From a virus (Duplodnaviria > Heunggongvirae > Uroviricota > Caudoviricetes): a stretch of 16,061 bases of DNA. A model generated the notes under the pieces. That model saw only the letters and a list, made by a program, of their open reading frames with translations, did no database searches and had not been told where the DNA came from. The stretch lies in the IMG/VR virus record IMGVR_UViG_2778261537_000017, positions 1 to 16,061 of that record. One strand, written 5' to 3'. Each line of letters starts with the position of its first letter. The stretch's first letter is position 1. This document shows positions 1 to 3,466 of the stretch, piece after piece. A program made the translations under genes and the position numbers.

Positions 1-624
1 GCCGGTAAGTAAGCCTTGAGGAACTCGCTTGTCGGCTAGACATTGGGTTCCGCGAATTATGTTAATCAGAGGGCTTAGTAACGATGGTTCCTGGCGGGCC
101 TCAACTTCTCCAGCCATTGCCCTGATGTAGTCGGCGCTTGCAACGTTGTTATATTCCGTTGCGAAGCAGCATAACAACGACAGAACGTGCTCTGTCGTTA
201 TTTCGCTCCAGTTGATGTTGAAAAATTCATCGCCTTTTTTGTCGTGTTCGGAATCGAAGATGCTTTGGTGGAGGATGTATTTGCCGGATTCTTTGCGCGG
301 TAACTTGATCGCTTTCTGGCGTTCCAGCTCCTTGTAAATCTGCATTGCTTCAATTAGTACCGGCCTGCCGTTCATGAAGGGATCGCGCAACCTTACACGC
401 TGGCCAACTCGACCCGTAATAAAGCTGTTTTCCTCTTCCACCAGCACGATAAAACCCTTTTCCTCTTTTTCTCGCAATTCGCGCAGCAGCTGGAGTTCCA
501 TATCGCGGCGGCGTTCAGGGTAGCTGGTCCGCTCAGCCATTATCAGCTCATTGTTGATCCATGCGGCAGTCATTGACGCCGGTTTGCCGACGCTCATCGA
601 AACAACGCATATTTTCTTATCCAT
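1..624 (-). CDS. mat: Phage protein at the P1 mat position (downstream of ref); N-terminal 208 codons only, C-terminus lies beyond the window
   Basis: Minus-strand frame is open from the ATG at 624-622 down to position 1 (I checked every in-frame triplet; no stop). RBS AAGGGG lies about 7 nt upstream. Translation begins MDKKICVVSMSVGKPASMTAAWINNELI. Not in the ORF track because no stop falls inside the window. The mat assignment is by position only. Confidence 0.6.
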   Translation of the reverse strand, partial: MDKKICVVSMSVGKPASMTAAWINNELIMAERTSYPERRRDMELQLLRELREKEEKGFIVLVEEENSFITGRVGQRVRLRDPFMNGRPVLIEAMQIYKELERQKAIKLPRKESGKYILHQSIFDSEHDKKGDEFFNINWSEITTEHVLSLLCCFATEYNNVASADYIRAMAGEVEARQEPSLLSPLINIIRGTQCLADKRVPQGLLTG

Positions 625-1982: not shown

Positions 1983-3014
1983 CTAATCGCCATCTTCCAG
2001 CAGGCGCACCATTGCCCCTGTTTCACTATCCAGGTTACGGATATAGTTCATGACAATATTTACGTTGGTCCAGCCACCAGCTTGCATGATCTCCGGTATT
2101 GAAACTCCGGCGCGGGCCATATCTCGCGCGGCTCCGACACGGGCACTGTGTCCAGACCAGGCCAGGTACCTCTGACCAGAGTCATCCTTAGCCCCGTAAA
2201 TCAATCGGTGAGTTGCTTCAAAAATCCCTTCCAGGGCGCGAGTTGATAGCTGGCTGGTGGATGATGGCGAGGCAACACCATTTTTTCTGACCCGGCAAAA
2301 CAAGTAGTTATTCGGATCATCAGCCACACCAGAGACGGAAATCCATCGCTCGACCAGTTTAGTTACCCCCAGGCTAAGTGCCTTCTCTACACCTGCGGTG
2401 CTAACCAGCGTTTTCGTTCTGCCAATATGGATTAACATTCTCCCACCGTCAGTACGTGAGATATCTTTAACCCTGATCCTGGCAATTTCGGCTATACGTA
2501 ACAGGGTGTTATAAGCAATCCCCAGAAATGCCAGATTCCGTATATCCTGGCAGCGATCGCTATTTCCCATGAGTGAACGAACCTGGTCGAAATCAGTGCG
2601 TTCGAACGCCAGCGCCTGTTTTGCACGCTCACCGGCATCAACGTTTTCTTTTCGGATCCGTCGCATGACCAGTGAAACAGCATTGCTGTCACTTGGTCGT
2701 GGCAGCCCGGACCGACGATGAAGCATATTTAGCTGGCCCAAATGTTGCTGGATAGTTTTCACTGCCAGACCGCGCGCCTGAAGATATAGAAGATAATCGC
2801 GAACATCTTCAGGTTCTGCGGGAAACCATTTCCGGTTATTCAACTTGCACCATGCCGCCCATGACCGGCAAACGGACAGAAGCATTTTCCAGGTATGCTC
2901 AGAAAACGCCTGGCGATCCCTGAACATGTCCATCAGGTTCTTGCGAACCTCATCACTCGTTGCATCGACCGGTAATGCAGGCAAATTTTGGTGTACGGTC
3001 AGTAAATTGGACAT
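1983..3014 (-). CDS. cre: Cre site-specific tyrosine recombinase, 343 aa
   Basis: Translation MSNLLTVHQNLPALPVDATSDEVRKNLMDMF... matches P1 Cre along its length as I recall it. Catalytic residues are in place (GHSARVGAAR, GGWTN, MNYIRN). loxP lies about 420 bp upstream. Confidence 0.97.
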   Translation of the reverse strand: MSNLLTVHQNLPALPVDATSDEVRKNLMDMFRDRQAFSEHTWKMLLSVCRSWAAWCKLNNRKWFPAEPEDVRDYLLYLQARGLAVKTIQQHLGQLNMLHRRSGLPRPSDSNAVSLVMRRIRKENVDAGERAKQALAFERTDFDQVRSLMGNSDRCQDIRNLAFLGIAYNTLLRIAEIARIRVKDISRTDGGRMLIHIGRTKTLVSTAGVEKALSLGVTKLVERWISVSGVADDPNNYLFCRVRKNGVASPSSTSQLSTRALEGIFEATHRLIYGAKDDSGQRYLAWSGHSARVGAARDMARAGVSIPEIMQAGGWTNVNIVMNYIRNLDSETGAMVRLLEDGD

Positions 3015-3021
3015 TTAACAC

Positions 3022-3243
3022 TCAGATAATGGTTTTAAGTAAAGTGTACAGGATCGGCTCTGCCTTTACCTGTTTATGGTTCTCGTCATAGAAACGCCAG
3101 CGACCGCGCGTGCGTTCTATTTTCTCTTCACCGCGCGATAATGACAGTTGACAACTATCACGATCAAACCCTTTTGCCCGCCAGTAACCACGGTTTTTCT
3201 CAAGCTCAATATGAGTGGACACTTTAGCAGCTGAATATCCCAT
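3022..3243 (-). CDS. Hypothetical 73-aa protein immediately upstream of cre
   Basis: Strong RBS (AGAGGTGAAAA then ATG at 3243). Its TGA stop lies 7 nt before the cre ATG. Basic protein (MGYSAAKVSTHIELEKNRGYWRAKGFDRDS...). I do not recall an annotated P1 gene here, so it may instead be non-coding cre promoter sequence. Confidence 0.4.
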   Translation of the reverse strand: MGYSAAKVSTHIELEKNRGYWRAKGFDRDSCQLSLSRGEEKIERTRGRWRFYDENHKQVKAEPILYTLLKTII

Positions 3244-3340
3244 TTTTCACCTCTGATTGATTGGTGGTGCTAAGTGCGCTACGCGAAATCTGGAGCACTA
3301 ACACTGCCAACATTTCGCAGATTTTACGTAGCGCAACCTT

Positions 3341-3413
3341 GATCAAATGATCAAGTGATCACTATTTGACCTGATAAGGTATTGAACTGTATGGATTTAC
3401 AGGTAAATTGATC
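3341..3413 (-). promoter_or_regulatory. Cre promoter region with clustered Dam (GATC) sites
   Basis: GATC at 3341, 3349 and 3357 (three within 20 bp) and at 3410, between loxP and cre. Consistent with the reported methylation-sensitive cre promoters in P1. Confidence 0.5.
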
Positions 3414-3432: not shown

Positions 3433-3466
3433 ATAACTTCGTATAATGTATGCTATACGAAGTTAT
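3433..3466 (+). other. loxP recombination site (13-bp arm, 8-bp spacer, 13-bp arm)
   Basis: Exact ATAACTTCGTATA-ATGTATGC-TATACGAAGTTAT. Confidence 0.97.

What the first reader, a model, noticed from the sequence alone, without database searches (positions are those of the whole stretch)
3022..3243. Unannotated 73-aa ORF with a strong RBS ending 7 nt before cre
The region between loxP and cre is usually treated as cre promoter space, but it contains a complete ORF with a near-ideal RBS and a stop 7 nt from the cre ATG. Cre itself has a weak RBS, so translation of this ORF could couple to or occlude cre initiation. The protein is basic, which fits a small nucleic-acid-binding or regulatory peptide.
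Basis: seen in the sequence. Interest (0 to 1): 0.45.

Follow-up and report, generated by a model that had tools for sequence, protein, structure and literature searches.

The report
Known P1 gene cra, upstream of cre
The 73-codon reading frame just upstream of the Cre recombinase gene is real and protein-coding, but it is the long-annotated phage P1 gene cra (ORF1 of 1986); its function is still unknown, and its stop codon always sits 7 bases before a cre start that has no ribosome-binding site of its own.

Summary
Window 3022..3243 (minus strand) is a 73-aa ATG ORF with an AGAGGTG Shine-Dalgarno 4 nt upstream. Its TGA lies exactly 7 nt before the cre ATG. The protein is basic (pI 9.6), and cre has almost no SD.

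"Unannotated" is wrong. The ORF is P1 cra (AF234172 CDS 207..428), which is "pot. ORF1" with an annotated RBS in X03453.

It is a genuine gene. dN/dS is 0.06-0.20. Homologues at 25-40% identity occur without cre in SSU5/pMT1-like phage-plasmids, in virulent Ackermannviridae phages and as stand-alone genes. A confident AlphaFold model (pLDDT 88) gives an alpha-alpha-beta4-alpha fold with no significant match to any characterised protein.

- In four diverged Cre lineages the 7-8 nt gap is kept while the spacer sequence changes.
- cre lacks an SD in three of these lineages, as it does in P1.
- Phage D6, which has no cra, gives dre its own AGAGGTG.

Evidence against coupling being essential:
- Rare natural frameshift alleles of cra keep cre intact.
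- Published CRISPRi scores cra non-essential.
- Two annotated cre promoters lie inside cra.

Verdict: a correct rediscovery of a known gene. Coupling is plausible but untested, and the protein's function is unknown and probably not Cre-specific.

The parts
3022..3243 (-). cra CDS (73 aa plus TGA), equal to P1 Cra / ORF1 and a member of PHROG 804
   Evidence: dN/dS 0.06-0.20
3248..3254 (-). Shine-Dalgarno of cra (AGAGGTG), 4 nt upstream of the ATG
   Evidence: -7.1 kcal/mol; annotated RBS in X03453
3015..3021 (-). 7-nt cra-cre spacer (GTGTTAA on the mRNA strand). Its length is conserved but its sequence is not.
1983..3014 (-). cre CDS (343 aa), with no usable SD
3321..3346 (-). P3cre (pR1) promoter upstream of cra: -35 TTGATC at 3341-3346 containing a GATC, -10 TAAAAT at 3321-3326. 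This is the promoter that would make a bicistronic cra-cre mRNA.
   Evidence: Mapped from the P1 annotation 104..129 onto the window sequence. The hexamers are identical.
3138..3167 (-). P2cre (pR2) promoter inside cra: -35 TTGATC at 3162-3167, -10 CATTAT at 3138-3143. Not conserved in the diverged relatives.
3026..3050 (-). P1cre (pR3) promoter inside the 3' end of cra: -35 TGTACA at 3045-3050, -10 ATTAT at 3026-3030. It would give a cre mRNA with a leader of only a few nucleotides.
3433..3466 (.). loxP (ATAACTTCGTATA ATGTATGC TATACGAAGTTAT)
3387..3402 (.). LexA box CTGTATGGATTTACAG between loxP and P3cre, assigned to the divergent P2coi promoter in the P1 record

Best explanation
The ORF is cra, a genuine, known gene.

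Shown here:
- It encodes an 8.7-kDa basic protein.
- The predicted fold is alpha-alpha-beta4-alpha.
- The protein belongs to a narrow phage and phage-plasmid family.
- Purifying selection maintains it.

Inferred: in the P1 lineage cra is the first cistron of a cra-cre message made from the Dam-site-bearing P3cre promoter. Ribosomes load at the strong cra SD and terminate 7 nt before the SD-less cre ATG. They then reinitiate there (termination-reinitiation coupling), so Cre synthesis from the long transcript is tied to cra translation.

From the P1 annotation: the two weak promoters inside cra (P2cre, P1cre) give a cra-independent basal Cre supply. This would make coupling helpful but not essential.

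Inferred from distribution: the Cra protein has a job of its own that is not Cre-specific. The most likely role is a small nucleic-acid- or protein-binding factor acting on DNA transactions early after entry of the element.
For: Identity:
- Annotated as cra/ORF1.
- PHROG 804 at E = 8e-35.

Real gene:
- dN/dS is 0.06-0.20 in unsaturated pairs.
- Among 85 close loci there are 14 synonymous and 16 non-synonymous segregating sites over about 48 and 171 sites, so pN/pS is about 0.3.
- All 85 loci are intact.
- The motif E-x-E-K-x-x-G-Y-W-R-A-K-G-F ... W ... L-x-x-L-L-K and the basic charge are conserved down to 25-40% identity, including homologues with no cre downstream.
- The AlphaFold2 model has pLDDT 88.4.

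Coupling:
- The gap is 7 nt in P1 and in three diverged lineages (spacers GTGTTAA, GCAGACA, CTAACTT, TTAAGCT). It is 8 nt in a metagenomic pair whose Cre is 64% identical.
- The cre SD duplex is 0 to -2.5 kcal/mol, against -7.1 to -11 for cra.
- Distances of -8 to +10 nt are treated as predictive of termination-reinitiation (PMC10666635).
- D6 has no cra, and dre has its own AGAGGTG.
- P2cre is not conserved in the diverged relatives, so cre there must depend on upstream transcripts.

Not Cre-specific:
- Homologues are the last gene of a RecA-like operon next to repA in SSU5/pMT1-like elements.
- Homologues occur in virulent Ackermannviridae phages.
- Stand-alone homologues are followed directly by terminator-like hairpins.
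Against: - No expression data for Cra were found, and no direct test of coupling exists.
- No conserved hairpin masks the cre start: mean unpaired probability is 0.5-0.65. A structure-opening form of coupling is therefore unsupported.
- The metagenomic pair L100 has an SD-like TAAGGA for cre (-5.9 kcal/mol).
- Natural frameshift alleles end cra about 100 nt upstream of cre, yet cre stays intact.
- CRISPRi knock-down of cra gives an efficiency of plating of 0.66 and is scored non-essential (PMC10695390).
- The same reinitiation paper notes that E. coli pairs about 10 nt apart may equally initiate independently.
Confidence: 0.55

Rival explanations
1. cre is translated independently of cra. It would use SD-independent or near-leaderless initiation on transcripts from the internal promoters P1cre/P2cre. 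On this view the 7-nt gap simply reflects genome compaction and shared ancestry, and cra and cre are only neighbours.
For: - The annotated promoters P2cre and P1cre lie inside cra.
- The -10 of P1cre lies 12-16 nt upstream of the cre ATG (window 3026-3030 against 3012-3014).
- Frameshifted cra alleles keep cre intact.
- cra is non-essential in the CRISPRi screen.
- The cre start region is largely unstructured.
- The reinitiation paper states that pairs about 10 nt apart may initiate independently.
- From established knowledge: Cre is routinely expressed without cra in heterologous systems.
Against: - Gap length is conserved while the spacer sequence diverges in lineages saturated at synonymous sites.
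- P2cre is not conserved in the diverged relatives.
- D6 dre, which lacks cra, has a strong SD, whereas cre lacks one in P1 and in three of the four diverged cra-containing lineages.
Confidence: 0.33
2. Cra is a dedicated partner or regulator of Cre. It might form a complex with Cre or bind near lox to bias cyclisation or dimer resolution, with the close spacing serving co-translational assembly.
For: - cra-cre synteny is kept down to Cre at 64% identity and Cra at about 40% identity.
- Gene pairs spaced -8 to +10 nt apart are enriched for subunits of heteromeric complexes.
- The protein is small and basic.
Against: - Homologues occur in SSU5-like elements and in virulent Ackermannviridae phages with no adjacent tyrosine recombinase.
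- The D6 Dre/rox system has no cra.
- From established knowledge: Cre alone is sufficient for lox recombination in vitro and in eukaryotic cells.
- There is no match to Xis-type or other recombination-directionality families.
Confidence: 0.1
3. The ORF is not a gene. It is a chance frame kept open by constraints on the embedded cre promoters, or it acts only as a cis-acting upstream ORF whose peptide is irrelevant.
For: - ORF length alone is only marginally unusual: 5.9% of shuffles reach it.
- Two promoters overlap the ORF.
- It has no Pfam or NCBIfam family.
Against: - dN/dS is 0.06-0.20.
- Protein-level conservation extends to homologues outside any cre context, including the C-terminal LLK-x-I-I that overlaps P1cre.
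- The structure model is confident.
- The promoter P2cre is itself not conserved, whereas the protein is.
Confidence: 0.02

Closest known systems
P1 Cra (AAQ13977; 'putative cre associated function') = ORF1 of X03453; P7 Upf0.2; PHROG 804
   Same: Same gene at the same position. The window protein is 97% identical to the P1 reference, and its exact sequence is on at least 1000 public contigs.
   Different: Nothing of substance. The window allele differs at 2 residues from the P1 reference (A5T, I12L).
SSU5_068 / pMT1 WP_002222711 ('putative Cre-associated protein' in SSU5) and Ackermannviridae homologues such as Klebsiella phage May gp143
   Same: Same family: 34-41% identity over the full length, the same conserved motif, size and basic charge.
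   Different: No tyrosine recombinase lies downstream. In SSU5-like elements it is the last gene of a RecA-like/SPFH operon next to repA. In virulent phages it is a lone small gene. The 'Cre-associated' label there is therefore a misnomer.
Termination-reinitiation coupled gene pairs in E. coli (Huber et al. 2019, PMC6728339; PMC10666635)
   Same: Co-oriented genes, a stop-to-start distance within -8 to +10 nt, and a downstream gene without its own SD.
   Different: The typical coupled pairs overlap by 4 or 1 nt, whereas here the gap is +7 nt. Coupling is untested, and internal promoters provide a bypass.
Phage D6 Dre/rox
   Same: A homologous recombinase module in a P1-related phage (Dre is 41% identical to Cre), with the same c1 - site - recombinase layout.
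   Different: D6 has no cra. dre carries AGAGGTG 10 nt upstream and a 3-codon mini-ORF (ATGGTTTCATGA) whose stop overlaps the dre ATG.
Xis/RDF-type small basic proteins next to tyrosine recombinases
   Same: Small, basic, encoded immediately beside a tyrosine recombinase gene.
   Different: No sequence or fold similarity was found. Cre needs no directionality factor (established knowledge). The family also occurs without recombinases.

Membership tests
P1 Cra / PHROG 804 family | Significant sequence similarity over the full length to Cra | tested here: met
   PHROG 804 at E = 7.9e-35 over residues 3-73; 97% identity to P1 Cra
P1 Cra / PHROG 804 family | Position between loxP and cre, same strand as cre | tested here: met
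   loxP 3433-3466, cra 3022-3243(-), cre 1983-3014(-)
Translationally coupled pair (termination-reinitiation) | Co-oriented genes with a stop-to-start distance of about -8 to +10 nt | tested here: met
   7 nt here and in three diverged lineages, 8 nt in L100; criterion taken from PMC10666635
Translationally coupled pair (termination-reinitiation) | Downstream gene lacks an effective SD of its own | tested here: met
   cre 0 to -2.5 kcal/mol against cra -7.1 to -11; the exception is L100 at -5.9
Translationally coupled pair (termination-reinitiation) | Both cistrons on one transcript | not testable with these tools
   Only the annotated promoter P3cre upstream of cra and the absence of a terminator between the genes bear on this. 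No transcript data are available.
Translationally coupled pair (termination-reinitiation) | Downstream translation depends on upstream translation reaching the native stop | not testable with these tools
   This needs reporter fusions. Natural frameshift alleles with cre intact show only that coupling is not essential for persistence.
Recombination directionality factor (Xis-like) | Sequence or fold of a known RDF/Xis family (winged helix / HTH) | tested here: not met
Recombination directionality factor (Xis-like) | Strict association with a site-specific recombinase | tested here: not met
   Homologues occur without an adjacent recombinase in SSU5-like, Ackermannviridae and stand-alone loci
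Anti-phage defence component (PADLOC) | Match to a defence-system profile | tested here: not met
   No hit

The most novel reading that the evidence does not exclude
Cra is a functional small basic protein that modulates DNA recombination or repair transactions of incoming phage or plasmid DNA. In the P1 lineage it would be produced stoichiometrically with Cre through translational coupling and would act with Cre at lox, for example to favour cyclisation after infection. That would be a hitherto unrecognised accessory factor of the Cre/lox system.
Probability: 0.1. Interest if true: 0.6.

Novelty: already known. Interest (0 to 1): 0.2.

Why it matters
Cre/lox is among the most widely used genetic tools, yet its native regulation in P1 is little studied. 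Apart from a non-essentiality score in one CRISPRi screen, I found no functional study of its upstream neighbour cra in the library I could search.

The comparative pattern suggests that native Cre synthesis is tied to cra translation. The pattern has three parts: a fixed 7-nt gap, an SD-less cre, and a strong SD on dre where cra is missing.

The wider distribution shows that the name "Cre-associated" is positional, not functional. None of this changes how Cre is used. It gives a cheap, testable hypothesis and corrects some database names.

Tried and rejected
- Pfam, NCBIfam, PADLOC and a PDB sequence-profile search gave nothing for Cra.
- The first AlphaFold run, with 20 close sequences, was poor (pLDDT 62). 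I discarded it in favour of the 31-sequence run (pLDDT 88).
- I looked for a conserved hairpin masking the cre start and found none.
- I tested whether the 356-aa protein upstream of cra in diverged P1-like elements matches the RecA-like protein or the 111-aa upstream protein of SSU5-like elements. It matches neither. All these neighbours belong to PHROGs of unknown function.
- The simple sigma-70 consensus scan finds none of the annotated cre promoters, because they are weak.
- The genome papers by Lobocka et al. 2004 and Sauer & McDermott 2004, and Sternberg et al. 1986, are not held in the library. What I say about them rests on the GenBank records and on background knowledge.
- I considered a LexA/SOS link. 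A LexA box lies 140-160 nt upstream of the cra operon in P1-like elements, and another lies between umuD and a cra-like gene in L101-L103. This gives only two independent contexts, and the box is absent upstream of cra in the SSU5-like loci, so I did not pursue it.

Full report
**What is in the sequence.** The window is a P1-like phage-plasmid segment, closest to Salmonella phage SJ46 (99% identity over 72% of the window).
- On the minus strand, cre occupies 1983..3014 (343 aa).
- The ORF in question occupies 3022..3243 (ATG start, 73 aa, TGA stop).
- loxP is at 3433-3466, and coi and c1 follow on the plus strand.
- The mRNA-sense sequence reads ...CAGAGGTGAAAA-ATG...ATC-TGA-GTGTTAA-ATG(cre).
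- The cra SD pairs with the 16S 3' end at -7.1 kcal/mol. The best site upstream of cre reaches only -2.5.
- The protein is 8.7 kDa with pI 9.6.

ORF length alone is weak evidence: 5.9% of shuffles of the 418-nt interval reach 73 codons.

**It is not unannotated.**
- Megablast to phage records shows the ORF annotated as cra (Cra, 'putative Cre-associated protein') in P1, P7 (also Upf0.2), phiW39, SJ46 and RCS47.
- In the P1 genome record it is CDS 207..428, 'putative cre associated function'. cre starts at 436.
- That record places promoter P3cre upstream of cra, and promoters P2cre and P1cre inside it.
- In the 1986 record X03453 it is 'pot. ORF1 (aa 1-73)' with its own annotated ribosome-binding site.
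- I mapped the three promoters onto the window, and all hexamers are identical (see the parts list).
- A published map names cra between loxP and cre (PMC2409434).
- A genome-wide CRISPRi screen scores cra non-essential for plaque formation, with an efficiency of plating of 0.66 (PMC10695390).
- I found no paper that assigns a function.

**It is a real protein-coding gene.**
- All 85 close relatives I fetched keep the 73-codon frame.
- Across those 85 loci there are 14 synonymous and 16 mostly singleton non-synonymous segregating sites, so pN/pS is about 0.3. For cre the counts are 99 and 33, about 0.1.
- Between diverged lineages with unsaturated dS, dN/dS is 0.06-0.20.
- A profile search of 1.84 billion representative proteins finds only 25 relatives, so the family is narrow.
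- The family shares E-x-E-K-x-x-G-Y-W-R-A-K-G-F, a central R-x-D...I...W, and a C-terminal L-x-x-L-L-K-x-I-I.
- A basic charge is conserved throughout the family (pI 9.0-10.7).
- The C-terminal motif overlaps promoter P1cre, yet it is also conserved in homologues that have no cre downstream. The constraint is therefore on the protein.
- With the 31-sequence alignment AlphaFold2 gives a confident model (pLDDT 88.4, pTM 0.75): helices 5-16 and 18-23, a four-stranded meander at 34-62, and helix 65-71.
- Pfam, NCBIfam, PADLOC and PDB sequence searches are all empty.

**Genomic contexts.**
1. P1 proper: loxP, then about 190 nt, then cra, then 7 nt, then cre.
2. Diverged P1-like elements of Salmonella, Klebsiella and Cronobacter (Cra 58-67% identical). 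The order is a 68-aa gene, a 356-aa gene (overlapping cra by 4 nt), cra (71 aa), 7 nt, then a 342-aa Cre homologue.
3. A metagenomic contig with a Cra relative (about 41% identical), an 8-nt gap, and a Cre that is 64% identical.
4. SSU5/pMT1-like phage-plasmids. About 765 PLSDB plasmids carry a 70-aa homologue at about 39% identity. It is the last gene of an operon with a RecA-like recombinase and an SPFH protein, it lies next to repA, and no tyrosine recombinase follows it.
5. Virulent Ackermannviridae phages, for example Klebsiella phage May gp143. Here it is a lone small gene.
6. Stand-alone genes beside umuDC or a ProQ-domain gene, followed directly by terminator-like hairpins.

The protein therefore has a role that does not require Cre, and the name 'Cre-associated' describes only its position in P1.

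**Does cra translation feed cre?**

Evidence for:
- The stop-to-start distance is exactly 7 nt in P1 and in three lineages that are saturated at synonymous sites relative to P1. The spacer sequences differ: GTGTTAA, GCAGACA, CTAACTT and TTAAGCT. In the fourth lineage the distance is 8 nt.
- cre has essentially no SD in P1 and in three of the four diverged lineages, whereas cra always has a strong one.
- Experimental work on native E. coli pairs shows that reinitiation falls steeply with distance. That work treats -8 to +10 nt as predictive of termination-reinitiation (PMC10666635).
- Phage D6, whose Dre is 41% identical to Cre, has no cra between rox and dre. There dre carries AGAGGTG (-7.1 kcal/mol) 10 nt upstream, together with a 3-codon mini-ORF whose TGA overlaps the dre ATG.
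- The internal promoter P2cre is not conserved in the diverged relatives. cre there must be read from transcripts that start upstream of cra.

Evidence against, or limiting:
- No conserved hairpin occludes the cre start.
- The metagenomic pair has an SD-like TAAGGA for cre.
- In P1, annotated promoters inside cra can supply cre mRNA that cannot be coupled.
- The same paper cautions that pairs about 10 nt apart may initiate independently.
- Two independent 1-nt deletions truncate Cra to 41 aa and move its stop about 100 nt away from cre. One is in the A4 run of GCAAAAGGG, the other at TTTGATCG. They occur on 115 and 17 contigs, and cre is intact in all seven loci of these alleles that I fetched.
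- These deletion alleles are rare: 1 of 90 in IMG/VR, against at least 1000 contigs for the window allele alone.

I conclude that coupling is the most likely way Cre is made from the long transcript (probability about 0.5-0.6), and that it is dispensable for persistence of the element.

**What the protein does** remains unknown. The consistent basic charge and the conserved Trp/Arg/Lys residues fit nucleic-acid binding. The neighbours (Cre, a RecA-like recombinase, UmuDC, replication genes) hint at DNA transactions. This is inference only.

**Novelty and score.** The feature is a correct rediscovery of a gene annotated since 1986 (ORF1) and 2004 (cra). The small additions made here are:
- the conserved 7-nt spacing with an SD-less cre;
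- the D6 contrast;
- the non-Cre distribution of the family;
- the natural null alleles;
- a confident fold model.

Interest is low (0.2). The most novel reading still open is that Cra is a true accessory factor for Cre or for recombination generally, at a probability of about 0.1.

Noticed in passing
window 3022-3243 and homologues (P0003, P0024, P0030, P0032 etc.): NCBI/PGAP and UniRef name this 73-aa protein 'creatininase'. It has no similarity to any enzyme family, so this is almost certainly a mix-up propagated from the gene symbol cra. In many phage records cre itself is labelled 'GST-loxP-cre recombinase fusion protein', a name inherited from a vector entry.
   Followed up: partly
L108-L114 (equivalent to window about 3146-3161): Two independent 1-nt deletions in cra give 41-aa products (P0043 on 115 contigs, P0044 on 17 contigs). 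One is an A4-to-A3 slip in GCAAAAGGG, the other is at TTTGATCG. The rest of cra and all of cre are unchanged. Several single in-frame deletion alleles (4-28 aa) and two apparently compensated double frameshifts (P0016, P0019) also exist.
   Followed up: yes
L206 (phage D6, AY753669) 2411-2437: D6 has no cra between rox and dre. Immediately upstream of dre lies AGAGGTGAA-ATG-GTT-TCA-TGA, a strong SD plus a 3-codon mini-ORF whose stop overlaps the dre ATG (ATGA). This may be a minimal coupling device or a remnant of a deleted cra.
   Followed up: partly
L093-L099, L207 (diverged P1-like elements of Salmonella, Klebsiella, Cronobacter): Two extra genes sit between the lox side and cra. They encode 68 aa (PHROG 19934) and 356 aa (PHROG 7674), both of unknown function. 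The 356-aa ORF overlaps cra by 4 nt. P1 proper lacks both.
   Followed up: partly
window 3387-3402; L101 3851-3866: A perfect LexA box (CTGT-N8-ACAG) lies about 145 nt upstream of the cra ATG and is conserved in nearly all P1-like loci. A LexA box also lies between umuD and a divergently oriented cra-like gene in metagenomic contigs L101-L103. A possible SOS link for the family was not tested.
   Followed up: partly
phage record JX564242.1 / NC_049809.1 (Lactococcus phage Q33) 17548-17583: A 36-nt stretch identical to the window's loxP region lies inside the annotated portal gene of a Lactococcus phage record. This is unexpected for that host and may be an engineering scar or a chance or artefactual insertion.
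   Followed up: no
L007 (Acinetobacter idrijaensis, 399-nt contig); L012 (Catenulispora yoronensis, 704-nt contig): Tiny contigs in unrelated genome assemblies carry P1-type or SSU5-type cra at 96% and about 39% identity to the window protein. This is most likely enterobacterial or vector contamination of those assemblies.
   Followed up: no
L060, L086 (IMG/VR P1-like contigs): Two of 85 close relatives have a premature stop in cre (at codon 39 and at codon 205) while cra is intact.
   Followed up: no
window 3162-3167 and 3341-3346: The -35 hexamers of both P3cre and the internal P2cre are TTGATC, so each contains a Dam site (GATC). The P1 record marks Dam sites only in the P3cre region.
   Followed up: no
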